Source: Escherichia coli
GTDB lineage: Bacteria > Pseudomonadota > Gammaproteobacteria > Enterobacterales > Enterobacteriaceae
Length of the DNA stretch: 64,000 nucleotides
NCBI RefSeq assembly: GCF_001677475.2
Contig: NZ_CP015229.1
Reading direction: 5' to 3' (one strand)
Part shown: piece by piece, positions 51,001 through 57,000 of the stretch
Numbering within the stretch: position 1 is the stretch's first letter
Layout: each line of letters starts with the position of its first letter
Made by a program: the position numbers

Positions 51001-54000
51001 GTATTGGTTATCTGGCAGCCGAAAGGTTTAGGCATCGGCTGGAGTGCAACGCTCGGCGCAGTACTGGCGTTAGTTACGGGCGTGGTACATCCGGGTGATA
51101 TTCCGGTGGTGTGGAATATCGTCTGGAACGCGACGGCGGCGTTTATTGCCGTTATTATCATCAGCCTGCTGCTGGATGAGTCCGGCTTTTTTGAATGGGC
51201 AGCGCTGCACGTCTCACGCTGGGGCAATGGACGCGGTCGCTTGCTGTTCACCTGGATTGTCCTGCTCGGTGCTGCCGTTGCAGCTCTGTTTGCCAATGAT
51301 GGTGCGGCGCTGATTTTAACGCCAATTGTCATCGCCATGCTGCTGGCTTTAGGGTTCAGTAAAGGCACGACGCTGGCGTTCGTGATGGCGGCCGGATTCA
51401 TTGCCGATACCGCCAGCCTGCCGCTTATTGTCTCCAACCTGGTGAATATCGTTTCCGCAGATTTCTTTGGCCTCGGCTTTCGCGAATACGCATCGGTGAT
51501 GGTGCCGGTGGATATCGCCGCGATTGTTGCCACGCTGGTGATGTTGCATCTCTATTTCCGCAAAGATATTCCGCAGAACTACGACATGGCGCTGCTGAAA
51601 TCTCCCGCAGAAGCGATTAAAGATCCTGCTACGTTCAAAACTGGCTGGGTTGTTTTACTGCTTCTGCTGGTGGGATTTTTCGTCCTGGAACCGCTCGGCA
51701 TTCCGGTCAGCGCCATTGCGGCAGTGGGCGCGTTGATATTATTTGTCGTCGCTAAACGCGGTCATGCGATTAATACGGGTAAGGTGCTACGCGGTGCACC
51801 CTGGCAGATTGTCATCTTCTCGCTCGGCATGTATCTGGTGGTTTATGGCCTGCGCAATGCCGGGTTAACGGAATATCTTTCTGGCGTACTCAACGTGCTG
51901 GCGGATAACGGCCTGTGGGCCGCGACGCTCGGCACCGGATTCCTCACCGCCTTCCTCTCTTCTATTATGAACAATATGCCGACGGTACTGGTTGGCGCGT
52001 TGTCCATTGATGGCAGCACGGCATCTGGCGTTATCAAAGAAGCGATGGTTTATGCCAACGTGATTGGCTGCGATTTGGGGCCGAAAATCACCCCAATTGG
52101 TAGCCTGGCTACGCTACTCTGGCTGCACGTTCTTTCGCAGAAGAATATGACTATCAGCTGGGGATATTACTTCCGTACAGGGATTATCATGACCCTGCCT
52201 GTGCTGTTTGTGACGCTGACTGCGCTGGCGCTACGTCTCTCTTTCACTTTGTAATGAGATATTGATATGAGCAACATTACCATTTATCACAACCCGGCCT
52301 GCGGCACGTCGCGTAACACGCTGGAGATGATCCGCAACAGCGGCACAGAACCGACCATTGTCTATTATCTGGAAACCCCACCGACGCGTGATGAACTGGT
52401 CAAACTTATTGCCGATATGGGGATTTCCGTACGCGCGCTGCTGCGTAAAAACGTCGAGCCGTATGAGGAACTGGGCCTTGCAGAAGATAAATTTACTGAC
52501 GATCGGTTAATCGACTTTATGCTGCAACATCCTATCCTGATTAACCGTCCGATTGTGGTGACGCCGCTGGGAACTCGCCTGTGCCGCCCCTCGGAAGTGG
52601 TGCTGGAAATTCTGCCAGATGCGCAAAAAGGCGCGTTCACCAAGGAAGATGGCGAGAAAGTGGTTGATGAGGCGGGTAATCGCCTGAAATAGCTAAAGGG
52701 GGATATGCCCCCTTATTTGTTCTCCGCGGCTCCTTCGCCATTTGTTTTGCTATTTACGCAGCACTCCTCGCGTAAGAATTCAATTATCGCTTCCAGCATT
52801 GCGTATTGCGAAACACACATCAGCGTCCGACTCTCACGGTTTTGTTTGACCAGTCCTACCGATACCAGTGCTGATATATGGTGGCTGAGTGTGGAGCCAG
52901 GTATCCCAAGCTGCTTTTGCAACTCACCGACCGGCAACCCTTGTTCCCCAGCTTTGACAAGATGTTTAAATATGAACAAACGGGTCGGGTGACCTAGCTC
53001 TTTCAGCGCTTTAGCAACTTCTTCCAACTGCATATGACACCCCCTTTGTCTGGTTGATATTTCGATAATACCAGAAATATCTTGATCTGAATTTTATTTC
53101 GATTATTCTGGAAATATAGATTTATTCACTGAGGTTACGTATGAGTAGTTGGCTTGCGATGCTGCAAGATGCCGCAGAGATGTTTGTGTTTCTCGCCGTC
53201 GAGCTTTCTTTGCTGTTTATAGTGATTAGTGCCGGTGTCAGCCTGATAAGACAAAAGGTGCCAGACCATAAAATCCAGCAGATGATGGGGGCCAGAAAAG
53301 GGAGAGGCTATCTCCTGGCTGCTCTGTTGGGAGCCGTTACCCCGTTCTGTAGTTGCTCGACAATCCCCATGTTACGTGGATTGTTATCAGCGAAAGCCGG
53401 GTTTGGTCCGACTCTCACTTTTTTATTTGTTTCCCCATTACTTAATCCCATTATCGTCGGGTTAATGTGGGTGACCTTTGGCTGGAAAGTTACCTTGTTG
53501 TACGCGATTATCGCCGCCGGCGTCTCCGTACTTGCCAGTATTATCCTGGATTCTCTGGGATTTGAACGTCATATCATTGCCAGTAAAAGCTCATCAGCAA
53601 ATTGTTGTGCTCAAGCCAAAACTTCGCCGGGGACGACATATACGCCAATAAAAGTGAGTTGCTGTAGTCCAGCGGCTAAAGCCATTGAGAAACCCGTAGT
53701 TACCTGTTGCAGTACCAAAGCTGTGGTAAGTATTAATCCCATAAAACTAGCCACCAAAGATGCGTTGCAACAGTTTAAAGATGTACTGCCATATCTTTTG
53801 TTGGGGGTATTAATAGGCTCTTTTATTTATGGCTTTATTCCCTCAGAGTGGATTGCCGCTCATGCAGGGGCAGATAATCCCTTCGCCATCCCATTGAGCG
53901 CCGTTGTCGGTATTCCGCTGTATATCCGGGCAGAGGCGGTTATCCCTCTGGCATCTGTTCTGATGACAAAAGGAATGGGTCTGGGAGCATTAATGGCATT

Positions 54001-57000
54001 AATCATCGGCAGTGCCGGAGCAAGCCTGACGGAAGTGATATTACTTAAATCAATGTTCAGAATGCCGATGATAGCTGCATTCCTGACGGTTATCTTAGGT
54101 ATGGCTATCTTGATGGGCTATTTGACTCAAATGCTATTTTAAATAGATGCCAGCAGTAAACTATAAGGAGCATTGTGAGTGCCTTATCCTTCTGAGTAGA
54201 AAATCATAGATAGGATAATCCTTAAAAAGCACAAATAACTTAACTAATGCTTTGAGAATGATGACGGATCCATCAGTAAGTCATCAATCGACAATCACCA
54301 CGCAATCATGCTTCTCTTACATTTTATCGGAGAAGCAATGTCTCTTTGTCTCAGTGCTATCCCCCCTTTTAAAGGGCAGATTTCAGTCGCCAATACAACA
54401 CATTTTTAAATACACTTTAACCTGGTTCATTATTACACATCTAAAACATCACAAAAATATCACTTTACACACTATCGGAGAACATCATAACTTTTTAAAA
54501 TGAGCGCTTTTTGATAGTTATTAACGTATTCTTTTACGATACTATCACTGCCCTTTTTTATACACAAATATTACCGGGTGGAGATAAAAGGGAAGTCAAA
54601 GGTAATTATATCAGGAAGATATGACGCATTATATTTATTGTGTGTAGAAGAAAATCCATTCCTGTTCTAATTATCCAATTTAAAAATCCTAGCATAAACA
54701 GATGATGAATAAGGAATGTTATGTCAATTGACTTTACCCCAGGTATAATAAATATTTATCACGGCGATATTTATAACTGCACAACAAATACCGATAATGC
54801 TAAAACGCCAGACACACCGAAGTGGCCTTGCGATAATTGGGAAGAACAACAACCCATTAATTCCACATTCTCTGGAGAAGGATATACCTCTGATCAATAT
54901 GATTTAGCGCAACACCAACTTCAACAAATTTATGCGTGCCGCACGAACACCACATATACAAATGCAGACTACTCCAAAGTTGTGGCTCAACTTGTAAGTC
55001 TTATTACTAACATTGAAACGATAAGTTCGACACCACTTACGCGGCAGGCACAGGGACTACTTAATCAAATTAATAACATTAGATACGAAAAGAACAAAAG
55101 TGCTGAATGTCGAATCATTGTTGTCGCTAATCCTAAACCCGACAAGGCAATCATAACTAAAATTAGCGTAGAAGAGGGAATCCCCATAACATTCAGTGTC
55201 CAAACCATGTTTTCAGATACTAATTTTATTGCTGAACAACGAGCTGACTTACCAACTAATATAAAAGATATTCAAAGCCTGTATCAAAAAATGACGAAGT
55301 TATATATTGCGCACAGTGAAAATAAAAACAGGATGAAAGTCTTTGCCGGAACCAACTTTATTGATTTCAATATGACAGGACAGAACCTGTCCGGGTTCGT
55401 TCTAACCTTGTCAAGGTTTTATTTCGAAGATCTACTTAATATAAATTTCACTGACGCAAATTTAGGTGACACTATTTTTTCACATAAAGAACACCCTACC
55501 CCCAAATTATATAAAGATGGACAATATCTTGACAAACAAATCGAAGGTTTATTTTCAACATTATTAACCATTAATGACAACTTTTTACGAGCAAAAGCGG
55601 AAATTGCTTCGACAATAATTAAATTTTTAGAGACCAGGATAACCAATCTTTCATACAACGACATATTAAAATATCAGCAAGAATTCAAAAAAGAATGTTA
55701 TAAGCAAGTTAAAGCCTTTACGACACTCTCTCGATACAATAAAATTCAAACATGGGCAGAAATGTCTGAATATCAATTCGAAGTATTTCAATACGAGACG
55801 CTTAACCCAAAAAAAATGTCACACACGCCTTATTTAAAGAGGCCACTTCCTAATGAAAAAGATATAAATTATGGGGTGGAAATAGAAATACCATCTGGCA
55901 AAAGAATTCGCTTATCAAATCATTATCAGAATATAATACCATAATATTGATTATTAGCACTTTATAATCATTGAATAAAAATAGATTTTATGTAATTTTA
56001 AAACAAAGGGTTATATTATGGGGCGATGGATACTCATGCCACGCCCCAAAATAACGGAATTGAACTGAATCGAAGGGATATAAACATCAGACAGGTTTAC
56101 GTTACTATCAGGCATATCGCCTCAGAATCAGATGAAAACTATAAAGAAATATCTATTATGGCTTTAATATTTGTTGATAAGGATAGTAACATGAACATGA
56201 CAAAAGGTGCACTCATACTCAGCCTTTCATTTTTGCTTGCCGCATGTAGTTCAATTCCGCAAAATATCAAAGGCAATAACCAACCTGATATTCAAAAAAG
56301 TTTTGTTGCTGTTCATAACCAGCCGGGGTTATATGTTGGTCAACAAGCGCGCTTTGGTGGGAAGGTTATCAACGTTATCAATGGCAAAACGGATACGTTG
56401 TTAGAAATCGCTGTATTACCGTTGGATAGCTATGCGAAGCCTGATATTGAAGCCAACTATCAGGGCCGACTGCTCGCCAGACAAAGCGGCTTCCTTGATC
56501 CAGTGAACTATCGTAATCACTTTGTTACCATCCTCGGTACCATTCAGGGTGAACAACCAGGCTTTATCAATAAAGTCCCGTATAACTTCCTGGAAGTGAA
56601 TATGCAGGGCATCCAGGTGTGGCATTTGAGAGAAGTGGTTAATACCACCTATAACCTGTGGGATTACGGCTATGGTGCATTCTGGCCGGAACCGGGCTGG
56701 GGTGCGCCTTACTACACCAACGCGGTGAGTCAGGTAACACCTGAGCTGGTCAAATAACACCACCGAAAGATGCAGATGCTTTCTCAGCATCTGCATCATG
56801 CATTACATCAAATTAATACACAGTAAGCTAACTATTATTATTATAAGCCCTGTCCTGTTAATTACCTTTGGCAATCTGATTATAAAGTTAATGTCCGCAC
56901 CAGGAGTCGGTTATGTTTCTTATAATTACCAGGGATACGATGTTCTTCACCGCGATGAAAAACATTCTGAGTAAAGGTAATGTCGTTCATATACAGAACG

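What the first reader, a model, noticed from the sequence alone, without database searches (positions are those of the whole stretch)
52713..54142. Second ArsR-type regulator with a divergent ArsP-like permease next to arsRBC
Downstream of arsC lies a divergent pair: an ArsR/SmtB-family regulator and a DUF318 permease carrying TPFCSCSTIP, the motif type described for ArsP organoarsenical efflux permeases, plus a second Cys-rich loop. This would extend the locus to methylated or aromatic arsenicals.
Basis: partly seen in the sequence, partly recalled or inferred. Interest (0 to 1): 0.4.

Follow-up and report, generated by a model that had tools for sequence, protein, structure and literature searches.

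The report
Uncharacterised ArsP-like arsenical efflux cassette
Next to the ordinary arsenic-resistance genes of this Escherichia chromosome lies an intact sensor-plus-exporter gene pair related to the Campylobacter pump for methylated and aromatic arsenic compounds; E. coli K-12 has lost the pair, many farm-associated resistance plasmids carry it, and databases call it only "permease".

Summary
52713-53033(-) encodes a 106-aa ArsR/SmtB repressor. 53141-54142(+) encodes a 333-aa PF03773 (ArsP_1/DUF318) permease with TPFCSCSTIP and three CC pairs in a central loop, 20 nt downstream of arsC.

The motif argument is weak: TPFCSCS is a family-wide hallmark. Other evidence supports an arsenical role:
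- The permease is 36% identical end to end to characterised C. jejuni ArsP.
- It scores 231 bits on a Campylobacterota ArsP profile, against 110 and 88 bits (cut-offs 300 and 325) on the Cu/Zn SO_0444 and SaoE models.
- In 12 of 16 species-level loci its close relatives sit within 8 kb of ars genes, in several different gene orders. These include arsH on pESI-type plasmids. Every locus checked in full also had a separate As(III) carrier (ArsB or Acr3).
- The repressor is closest to AfArsR. It keeps the Cys95-Cys96 pair and lacks Cys102, but has a third invariant Cys73, so it is not a clean two-cysteine MAs(III) sensor.
- Two operator palindromes are invariant from E. coli to Aeromonas.

The pair is present in 2225 of 5426 complete E. 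coli genomes and deleted, with a remnant, in K-12-type strains.

Most likely it is a trivalent organoarsenical sensor/efflux cassette (confidence about 0.55), a new member of a known kind. The substrate is untested.

The parts
52713..53033 (-). ArsR/SmtB-family repressor gene (106 aa) with Cys73 and a vicinal Cys91-Cys92 pair at the end of helix alpha5. It has no Cys in the alpha3 position used by the classical ArsR.
   Evidence: ORF. NF033788 at 61.5 bits and HTH_20 at 53.8 bits. Best solved relative is AfArsR 6J05 (E 3.5e-10), aligned without gaps, with the CC pair on AfArsR Cys95-Cys96. In 118 homologues, C73 is present in 118 and C91/C92 in 115. dN/dS is 0.036.
53034..53140 (.). Divergent control region made of two tandem 37-nt units, each carrying one operator-like palindrome.
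   Evidence: Direct and inverted repeats. The alignment across E. coli, IncFIB and pESI plasmids, a Citrobacter prophage and Aeromonas shows the palindromes invariant while the flanks diverge.
53059..53078 (+). Operator-like palindrome 1, ATTTCGATAATACCAGAAAT (extended form GATATTTC-N10-GAAATATC, 53056-81). It lies in the spacer of a sigma-70-like promoter, TTGATA-18-TATCTT (53054-53083), that faces the permease gene.
   Evidence: The pattern occurs only twice in the 64-kb window, against 0.00 expected.
53096..53115 (+). Operator-like palindrome 2, ATTTCGATTATTCTGGAAAT, between the putative -10 hexamer and the permease ribosome-binding site.
53141..54142 (+). PF03773 (ArsP_1) permease gene, 333 aa. 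The layout is 4 + 4 membrane helices around a disordered Cys-rich cytoplasmic loop.
   Evidence: 36% identity, 206 bits, E 4e-69 to C. jejuni ArsP P0444. 231 bits on a Campylobacterota ArsP HMM. AlphaFold2 model with pLDDT 87.6 and pTM 0.84. Hydropathy.
53339..53368 (+). Codons for TPFCSCSTIP (residues 67-76). In the model, TPFC sits in a break between helices 52-66 and 71-83.
   Evidence: F69, C70 and C72 are invariant in 55 diverse homologues.
53573..53737 (+). Hypervariable central loop (residues 145-199) rich in Ser, Thr, Pro and Cys, with three CC pairs.
   Evidence: Loop alignment. CC counts per homologue. pLDDT is about 50 in the model. Nucleotide homology to the plasmid, Citrobacter and Aeromonas copies breaks exactly here.
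52696..52714 (.). GC-rich hairpin (AAGGGGG-ATATG-CCCCCTT) between the convergent arsC and regulator genes. It is a likely terminator for arsRBC and overlaps the regulator's stop codon.
50558..52692 (+). Neighbouring classical arsR-arsB-arsC operon: a type-1 ArsR with the CVCDLC site, the ArsB As(III)/H+ antiporter and a Grx-type ArsC.

Best explanation
The pair is a self-contained sensor/efflux cassette for thiol-reactive trivalent arsenicals, most likely methylarsenite and reduced aromatic arsenicals such as trivalent roxarsone. It complements the arsRBC operon, which handles inorganic arsenic.

Proposed mechanism:
1. The ArsR-family dimer binds the two conserved palindromes. One lies in the spacer of the permease promoter and one just downstream, so the dimer represses the divergent genes.
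2. The arsenical binds the cysteine site at the C-terminal end of helix alpha5 (Cys91-Cys92, possibly completed by Cys73 of the partner subunit). This releases the repressor from the DNA.
3. The permease is an 8-helix ArsP homologue. It binds the arsenical through the Cys70-x-Cys72 pair at a helix break in the membrane and exports it using the membrane potential. The CC-rich cytoplasmic loop may act as a capture site.

What is shown: gene identities, homology to CjArsP, conserved operators, purifying selection and repeated linkage to ars genes. What is inferred: the inducer, the substrate, the energy coupling and the roles of individual cysteines.
For: Homology:
- End-to-end 36% identity (206 bits, E 4e-69) to the C. 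jejuni protein that NCBI names 'organoarsenical efflux permease ArsP'. I confirmed that protein by its arsP-arsR-arsC context.
- The two proteins share the CSC motif and a loop SCC.
- A profile of the Campylobacterota ArsP clade scores the window protein at 231 bits. The SO_0444 and SaoE models give 110 and 88 bits, and CjArsP itself scores 83 and 106 on those models.
- A neighbour-joining tree puts the E. coli clade and the Campylobacterota ArsP clade in the same major branch.

Context:
- 12 of 16 species-level loci of close relatives have ars genes within 8 kb, in at least five different gene orders.
- Escherichia: arsRBC followed by the pair.
- Six Aeromonas species: permease divergent from REG-arsR(AfArsR type)-arsD-arsA-acr3-arsC. 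Acr3 was confirmed by Pfam only in A. piscicola.
- Buttiauxella: the pair plus arsRBC plus arsH.
- Craterilacuibacter and Crenobacter: arsR-arsC-arsD-arsA-permease-acr3.
- Ignatzschineria and a Staphylococcus plasmid also show linkage.
- pESI-type plasmids and Citrobacter NCU1 carry REG-arsH, where ArsH is the MAs(III)/Rox(III) oxidase. 168 plasmids keep intact arsH plus REG, and hundreds more keep graded arsH truncations.
- Every ars-linked locus examined in full also has ArsB or Acr3, so the permease is not the As(III) carrier there. C. jejuni shows the same pattern.

Regulator:
- The nearest solved relative is the As(III) sensor AfArsR, with the CC pair on Cys95-96 and no Cys102. Published work describes that pattern for the MAs(III)-selective SpArsR.
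- Ignatzschineria and Aeromonas carry this regulator in tandem with a true AfArsR-type (CC...C) paralogue, which suggests two different inducers.
- The operators are invariant from E. coli to Aeromonas and unique in the window.

Structure and selection:
- The AlphaFold2 model places TPFC at a helix break.
- dN/dS is 0.03-0.10.
Against: - No experiment exists for this protein or any close relative.
- The TPFCSCS motif is shared by Cu/Zn-exporting family members.
- His-rich relatives, presumably metal exporters, branch close to the ArsP clade, so substrate switches occur within it.
- The regulator has three invariant cysteines, not two. This fits a three-coordinate As(III)/Sb(III) or soft-metal site as well as a MAs(III) site.
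- Many relatives stand alone with no ars genes: A. veronii, Limnobaculum, Vibrio splendidus, Shewanella D64 and IncHI2 plasmids.
- In Craterilacuibacter the permease follows arsD-arsA directly, so it could be an ArsA partner for As(III).
- 58% of complete E. coli genomes have lost the pair, so it is dispensable in many niches.
- The E. coli and Citrobacter-prophage associations with arsBC are one inherited block, 78% nucleotide identity across arsB to the permease, and so are not independent.
Confidence: 0.55

Rival explanations
1. It is a second efflux route for inorganic trivalent metalloids (As(III)/Sb(III)), or a broad trivalent-arsenical exporter. It would be sensed through a three-cysteine site (Cys73', Cys91, Cys92) and might work with ArsA where ArsA is present.
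For: - All three cysteines are invariant in 118 regulator homologues.
- S3 sites are the rule for As(III)-responsive ArsRs.
- In Craterilacuibacter and Crenobacter the permease sits right after arsD-arsA under an AfArsR-type regulator.
- A review notes a proposal that ArsP may couple to ArsA.
- The predicted fold resembles ArsB.
Against: - Every ars-linked locus examined in full already has ArsB or Acr3.
- CjArsP is reported not to transport As(III).
- A separate regulator with its own operator sits beside an As(III)-sensing ArsR, which argues for a different inducer.
- The arsH adjacency points to organoarsenicals.
Confidence: 0.2
2. It is a soft-metal (Cu/Zn/Cd/Hg) efflux cassette like Shewanella SO_0444 or Shew_3410, and its position next to ars genes is genomic-island hitch-hiking.
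For: - PF03773 members SO_0444 and Shew_3410 matter under Cu/Zn stress.
- They share the CSC motif.
- Stand-alone pairs are common in marine Gammaproteobacteria.
- His-rich relatives lie nearby in the tree.
- An ECF sigma factor with a Cys-bearing tail sometimes travels with the module.
Against: - The score is 110 bits against a 300-bit cut-off for the SO_0444 equivalog, and none of the ten nearest representatives tested reaches it.
- Linkage to ars genes in 12 of 16 loci, in several independent gene orders, is hard to explain as hitch-hiking.
- The regulator's nearest solved relative is an arsenic sensor, not CzrA, SmtB or CmtR.
Confidence: 0.1
3. It responds to and exports another thiol-reactive species, such as reactive sulfur compounds or organic electrophiles, using a redox or persulfide switch on the cysteines like BigR or YgaV.
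For: E. coli YgaV and BigR are the second and third best solved relatives of the regulator. Other DUF318 subfamilies pair with thioredoxin-like proteins.
Against: - The BigR equivalog scores 38 bits against a cut-off of 155.
- No rhodanese, persulfide dioxygenase or sulfur-metabolism partner appears in any of the roughly 25 contexts examined.
- The thioredoxin-linked permeases fall in a different major branch of the tree.
Confidence: 0.07
4. It is a decaying relic with no current function in Escherichia.
For: 58% of complete E. coli genomes carry a deletion allele. Other partial deletions exist, such as L038, where arsC is followed by only the C-terminal half of the permease. Plasmid copies show progressive loss of the adjacent arsH.
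Against: Both ORFs are intact. dN/dS is 0.03-0.10. The operators are invariant across genera. The pair is retained in E. fergusonii and E. whittamii.
Confidence: 0.03

Closest known systems
Campylobacter jejuni ArsP (organoarsenical efflux permease; Pfam PF03773, TCDB ArsP family)
   Same: Same Pfam family and similar length (333 vs 315 aa). 36% identity end to end. Identical TPFCSCSTIP motif. A central loop with a CC pair. Encoded beside an ArsR-family gene and ars genes that include a separate As(III) carrier.
   Different: - It belongs to a different subclade.
- Its loop is longer and hypervariable, with three CC pairs.
- It is divergently transcribed from a dedicated regulator of another ArsR subtype. 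CjArsR has the type-1 CVC site.
- Its transport has never been assayed.
SpArsR of Shewanella putrefaciens 200 (MAs(III)-selective ArsR) and AfArsR of Acidithiobacillus ferrooxidans (As(III) sensor, PDB 6J05)
   Same: AfArsR is the best solved relative. The vicinal Cys pair aligns on AfArsR Cys95-96. As described for SpArsR, the third ligand Cys102 is missing.
   Different: It carries an extra invariant Cys73 in the beta-wing, which AfArsR lacks (Tyr at that position). The SpArsR sequence could not be obtained, so orthology with it is untested.
SO_0444 family Cu/Zn efflux transporters and SaoE (other PF03773 subfamilies)
   Same: Same fold family and the same CSC motif.
   Different: Scores are 110 and 88 bits against cut-offs of 300 and 325. 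Genomic context is arsenic genes, not metal genes.
ArsB and DASS (ion-transporter superfamily) elevator-type carriers
   Different: There is no detectable sequence similarity and no Foldseek match. The protein has only 8 helices. The resemblance is at fold level and rests on a predicted model.

Membership tests
ArsP organoarsenical efflux permease family (PF03773 / TCDB ArsP) | PF03773 domain above the Pfam gathering score | tested here: met
   180.3 bits against a cut-off of 32.3, covering residues 9-330.
ArsP organoarsenical efflux permease family (PF03773 / TCDB ArsP) | Full-length homology to the functionally characterised C. jejuni ArsP, closer than to non-arsenic subfamilies | tested here: met
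   36% identity and E 4e-69 over residues 1-332. 231 bits on a Campylobacterota ArsP HMM, against 110 and 88 bits on the SO_0444 and SaoE models. Same major branch of the NJ tree, without bootstrap and without true SO_0444 sequences.
ArsP organoarsenical efflux permease family (PF03773 / TCDB ArsP) | The two conserved cysteines needed for CjArsP transport. Per the abstract of Chen et al. 2015, recalled from my own knowledge; the paper is not in the library. | tested here: met
   Cys70 and Cys72 lie in TPFCSCS and are invariant in 55 homologues. The feature is family-wide, so it does not discriminate substrate.
ArsP organoarsenical efflux permease family (PF03773 / TCDB ArsP) | Genomic linkage to ars genes alongside a separate As(III) carrier | tested here: met
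   12 of 16 species loci are ars-linked. ArsB or Acr3 is present in every locus examined in full.
ArsP organoarsenical efflux permease family (PF03773 / TCDB ArsP) | Confers resistance to and transports MAs(III)/Rox(III), but not As(III) or pentavalent forms | not testable with these tools
   Needs growth and vesicle-transport assays.
SO_0444 family Cu/Zn efflux transporter (NCBIfam NF033936) | Score at or above the equivalog cut-off (300 bits) | tested here: not met
   109.7 bits.
SaoE efflux transporter (NCBIfam NF040736) | Score at or above the equivalog cut-off (325 bits) | tested here: not met
   87.6 bits. No SAO-locus genes are nearby.
ArsR/SmtB metalloregulators | Winged-helix ArsR/SmtB domain above the NCBIfam subfamily cut-off | tested here: met
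   NF033788 at 61.5 bits against a cut-off of 55. 21 solved ArsR/SmtB relatives.
Type-1 (R773/K-12) ArsR | Cys32-x-Cys34...Cys37 site in helix alpha3 (ELCVCDLC) | tested here: not met
   The aligned stretch is GLPVGELQ, with no Cys. The upstream arsR of the window does have LCVCDLC.
Type-2 (AfArsR) As(III) sensor | Cys95, Cys96 and Cys102 at the C-terminal end of alpha5 | tested here: not met
   The CC pair aligns on Cys95-96, but there is no cysteine downstream (VNSKTNGEGAAENK). The tandem paralogue in Ignatzschineria does have CC...C.
SpArsR-type MAs(III)-selective repressor | Only the vicinal pair equivalent to AfArsR Cys95-96 as arsenic ligands, and a response to MAs(III) but not As(III) | tested here: inconclusive
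   The pair is present and the Cys102 equivalent is absent. An additional Cys73 is invariant in 118 of 118 homologues and may act as a third ligand. The SpArsR sequence and any inducer data are unavailable.
BigR sulfite/persulfide sensor (NF040642) | Score at or above the equivalog cut-off (155 bits) | tested here: not met
   38.3 bits.

The most novel reading that the evidence does not exclude
The regulator would define an ArsR sensory-site type not yet described: a beta-wing Cys73 plus the alpha5 C-terminal Cys91-Cys92, possibly formed across the dimer. Together with the ArsP-like permease it would form a mobile two-gene organoarsenical sensor/efflux cassette. ars operons, a prophage and IncFIB/pESI multidrug-resistance plasmids of poultry-associated Salmonella and E. 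coli would have captured this cassette repeatedly. Roxarsone-type feed additives could then have co-selected those plasmids through a determinant that current annotation and resistance-gene catalogues do not recognise.
Probability: 0.3. Interest if true: 0.55.

Novelty: new member of a known kind. Interest (0 to 1): 0.36.

Why it matters
- E. coli would have a native organoarsenical resistance determinant that laboratory K-12 has deleted. Arsenic work is usually done in K-12 hosts (for example AW3110), which therefore cannot reveal it.
- The same cassette lies on hundreds of conjugative IncFIB/pESI-type plasmids, next to arsH and close to blaCTX-M and other resistance genes. It is annotated only as 'permease'.
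- If it exports trivalent roxarsone or methylarsenite, it is an unrecognised co-selection marker in food-animal settings.
- The regulator and its operator could provide a compact biosensor part with a possibly distinct arsenical selectivity.

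Tried and rejected
- The primary papers on ArsP (PMC4681449) and SpArsR (PMC5653410) are not in the library. What defines ArsP and SpArsR was taken from reviews and later papers and, for the ArsP abstract, from my own knowledge.
- I could not obtain true SO_0444, Shew_3410, Cupriavidus or S. putrefaciens ArsP sequences or the SpArsR sequence. I used NCBIfam equivalog scores instead of a rooted tree.
- The His-rich representatives P0162, P0177, P0183 and P0188 were tested as possible SO_0444 members. They are not (55-87 bits).
- The loop CC pairs are not a family-defining feature. They are absent in the Ignatzschineria, L012 and Staphylococcus relatives.
- The regulator is not a clean two-cysteine SpArsR-type sensor, because Cys73 is invariant.
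- The E. coli and Citrobacter-prophage ars associations do not count as independent. The two share one block from arsB to the permease at 78% nucleotide identity.
- The pair was not inserted into this lineage. K-12-type genomes keep a 62-bp remnant of the regulator's 3' end, so they carry a deletion.
- The consensus promoter scan found no promoter for the regulator on the minus strand of the intergenic region.
- Cys-Cys distances in a regulator dimer could not be measured, because model coordinates are not exposed.
- Literature searches found no paper that describes this E. coli or plasmid permease as arsP.

Full report
**What is in the sequence**

The window is an Escherichia chromosome segment: prlC, rlmJ, gor, dinQ/agrB, arsRBC, then slp, dctR and chuS. 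The best match of the studied stretch to a complete E. coli genome is 98.3%.

The regulator ORF runs 52713-53033 on the minus strand (106 aa). It begins 20 nt after the arsC stop. The permease ORF runs 53141-54142 on the plus strand (333 aa), across a 107-bp intergenic region.

The regulator matches the generic ArsR/SmtB metalloregulator model (NF033788, 61.5 bits, cut-off 55). The permease matches PF03773 ArsP_1, the former DUF318 (180 bits, E 6e-53). TPFCSCSTIP is at residues 67-76. Three CC pairs lie in a central loop.

**Is the motif diagnostic?**

No. Among the nearest 50%-identity cluster representatives found in 1.84 billion proteins, about 80 of 94 full-length ones carry TPFC[SA]CS. 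A preprint by the curator of the NCBI models states that CSC is the single most conserved motif shared by the SO_0444 Cu/Zn exporters and SaoE. A DUF318 protein of Shewanella loihica matters under zinc stress. The loop CC pairs vary in number from 0 to 7 among relatives.

**Which subfamily?**

I recovered the real C. jejuni ArsP in three steps. I picked AT-rich representatives, confirmed that they come from Campylobacterota, and searched with one of them. Protein P0444 is named 'organoarsenical efflux permease ArsP [Campylobacter jejuni]' and lies in an arsP-arsR-arsC context.

- The window permease aligns with P0444 from end to end at 36% identity (206 bits, E 4e-69). The match includes the motif and a loop SCC.
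- An HMM built from the Campylobacterota ArsP clade scores the window permease at 231 bits. The next-best scorers after the Campylobacterota proteins are the closest relatives of the E. coli protein.
- The SO_0444 and SaoE equivalog models give 110 and 88 bits against cut-offs of 300 and 325. CjArsP itself scores 83 and 106 on those models.
- A neighbour-joining tree, without bootstrap, puts the E. coli clade and the Campylobacterota ArsP clade in one major branch. A thioredoxin-linked DUF318 type falls elsewhere.
- A group of His-rich relatives also falls inside that branch, so substrate may have changed within it.

**Genomic context of relatives**

This is the strongest evidence. A scan of one genome per species returned 21 loci. 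In 16 of them the gene is complete with usable flanks, and 12 of those 16 have ars genes within 8 kb.

- Escherichia whittamii has arsRBC followed by the pair, as in the window.
- Six Aeromonas species have the permease divergent from REG, an AfArsR-type arsR, arsD, arsA, acr3 and arsC. Acr3 was confirmed by Pfam only in A. piscicola.
- Buttiauxella has the pair beside arsC-arsB-arsR and arsH.
- Two Craterilacuibacter species and Crenobacter have arsR-arsC-arsD-arsA-permease-acr3, without the dedicated regulator.
- Citrobacter NCU1 has the pair plus arsH.
- Separately, Ignatzschineria (51% identity) has the permease divergent from REG, a second ArsR, arsC, arsD, arsA and arsB.
- A Staphylococcus plasmid (37% identity) has arsR-permease beside arsD-arsA-arsR-arsB.
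- A Citrobacter prophage has arsRDABC followed by the pair. That block is homologous to the window from arsB to the permease at 78% nucleotide identity, so it counts as the same event.

On the pESI-like IncFIB megaplasmid of Salmonella Infantis, the regulator heads an operon of arsH, a sigma-70-like gene and arsD, divergent from the permease. A genome-wide association study links exactly these neighbours (arsH, the sigma factor, arsD and arsA) to the poultry-associated REPJFX01 strain. That study does not mention the permease as arsP.

Of 653 plasmids that carry this region, 168 keep intact arsH plus the regulator. Many others keep arsH truncated at graded points. The 'pair alone' IncFIB versions are therefore decayed forms.

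Every ars-linked locus that I examined in full also encodes ArsB or Acr3. This mirrors C. jejuni, where ArsP handles organoarsenicals and Acr3 handles arsenite.

Stand-alone pairs also exist: Aeromonas veronii, Limnobaculum, an IncHI2 plasmid, Vibrio splendidus and Shewanella D64.

**The regulator**

Its best solved relative is the As(III) sensor AfArsR (6J05, E 3.5e-10). The alignment has no gaps and places Cys91-Cys92 on AfArsR Cys95-Cys96. There is no equivalent of the third ligand, Cys102. [quoted passage not shown]

The picture is less clean than that, however. Cys73, in the second wing strand just before alpha5, is invariant in 118 of 118 homologues down to 59% identity. Cys91 and Cys92 are present in 115 of the 118. 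In ArsR/SmtB dimers the start of one alpha5 packs against the end of the other; this is my own knowledge of the SmtB/CzrA alpha5 sites. An intersubunit three-cysteine site is therefore possible, but I could not measure it.

The regulator lacks the type-1 CVC site that the window's own ArsR has. It falls far below the BigR cut-off. In Ignatzschineria and Aeromonas it sits in tandem with a true AfArsR-type paralogue (CC followed by a third C), which suggests the two sense different signals.

**Control region**

The intergenic region consists of two tandem 37-nt units, each with a palindrome:
- ATTTCGATAATACCAGAAAT at 53059-53078
- ATTTCGATTATTCTGGAAAT at 53096-53115

These are the only two matches to the degenerate consensus built from the two sites (ATTTCGATWATWCYRGAAAT, up to two mismatches) in 64 kb, against none expected. 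They are invariant or nearly so across E. coli, the plasmids, the Citrobacter prophage and Aeromonas, while the surrounding bases diverge.

The first palindrome lies in the spacer of a sigma-70-like promoter facing the permease gene. Neither palindrome occurs near arsR, so nothing in the sequence suggests cross-control of arsRBC. A GC-rich hairpin at 52696-52714 separates arsC from the convergent regulator gene.

**Structure**

An AlphaFold2 model built on 55 homologues is confident (pLDDT 87.6, pTM 0.84). It shows 4 + 4 membrane helices around a disordered loop at residues 145-199. TPFC sits in a break between helices 52-66 and 71-83, and a matching break occurs at residues 261-263.

**Population genetics**

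The pair is present at this site in 2225 of 5426 complete E. coli genomes. It is also present in E. fergusonii at about 90% amino-acid identity. K-12-type genomes keep a 62-bp remnant of the regulator's 3' end, and homology resumes at window position 54414. That deletion junction is found in 3169 genomes, including UTI89. The two alleles together account for 5394 of 5426 genomes.

Both genes are under strong purifying selection (dN/dS 0.03-0.10). About 1000 plasmids encode a homologue, and roughly 650 of those are at 75-81% identity in Escherichia, Salmonella and Klebsiella.

**Verdict**

The pair is real, intact and selected. The permease is an ArsP-family member that is closer to the characterised organoarsenical pump than to the metal-exporting subfamilies. 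It is repeatedly linked to ars genes, including arsH.

The most likely function is inducible efflux of trivalent organoarsenicals (confidence about 0.55). Export or sensing of inorganic As(III)/Sb(III) is the main rival (about 0.2), and soft metals come next (about 0.1). Substrate and inducer remain untested.

This is a new member of a known kind and not a new mechanism. Three aspects are modestly notable: its absence from K-12, its unrecognised spread on resistance plasmids, and a regulator whose invariant three-cysteine pattern matches none of the described ArsR site types exactly.

Noticed in passing
window 52692-54414, compared with L003 5093-5412: K-12-type E. coli carry a deletion of the whole pair that leaves a 62-bp remnant of the regulator's 3' end. 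The deletion allele is in 3169 complete genomes and the intact allele in 2225. Another decay allele (L038) has arsC followed by only the C-terminal half of the permease.
   Followed up: yes
L042 5485-6099; L014 5208-5753(-); L027 2731-3258(-); L018 4053-4595: An ECF-type sigma-70 gene with a Cys-bearing C-terminal tail recurs next to this regulator/permease module or next to a distant DUF318 permease. It is seen in Vibrio, on pESI between arsH and arsD, in Aeromonas, and on a C. freundii plasmid with a thioredoxin gene. The pESI and Vibrio copies are 29% identical (E 1e-22). It is absent from the window, and its role is unexplained.
   Followed up: partly
[not shown]
   Followed up: partly
P0162, P0177, P0183, P0188 (representatives): Relatives with 21-32 histidines branch inside the same major clade as the ArsP proteins, yet are not SO_0444 family members (55-87 bits). 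They are probably metal exporters, which would show that substrate switches within the clade.
   Followed up: partly
L032, L036, L037 (Craterilacuibacter, Crenobacter): The gene order arsR(AfArsR type)-arsC-arsD-arsA-permease-acr3 places the DUF318 permease directly after the ArsA ATPase. This raises the possibility of an ArsA-coupled ArsP.
   Followed up: partly
L010 6112-10159 (Burkholderiaceae MAG): A 53%-identical permease lies next to a molybdopterin oxidoreductase, a 4Fe-4S subunit and a TorD-like chaperone, with an ArsR gene nearby. This could be an arsenate respiratory reductase-like cluster, but it was not verified.
   Followed up: no
window 54721-55944: An intact 407-aa ORF with no Pfam or NCBIfam match lies in a low-GC stretch (32-36%). 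The homologous gene is split by IS5 in K-12-type genomes and frameshifted in strain E300010.
   Followed up: no
window 50089-50173 and 50324-50407: Two copies of the AgrB antisense RNA (Rfam RF02891, 93 and 107 bits) lie between dinQ and arsR, as expected for this E. coli region.
   Followed up: yes
window 52692-52713, compared with other E. coli: Most E. coli genomes that have the pair match in two pieces spanning about 1780-1800 bp for the 1701-bp query. They therefore carry roughly 80-100 bp that this window lacks. The offset of the K-12 remnant suggests the extra DNA lies between arsC and the regulator, but I did not map it.
   Followed up: no
L023 (E. coli E69 chromosome, 8001-8996): A second, 74%-identical version of the pair lies at a different chromosomal site with no ars genes within 8 kb. 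It is presumably on another mobile element.
   Followed up: no
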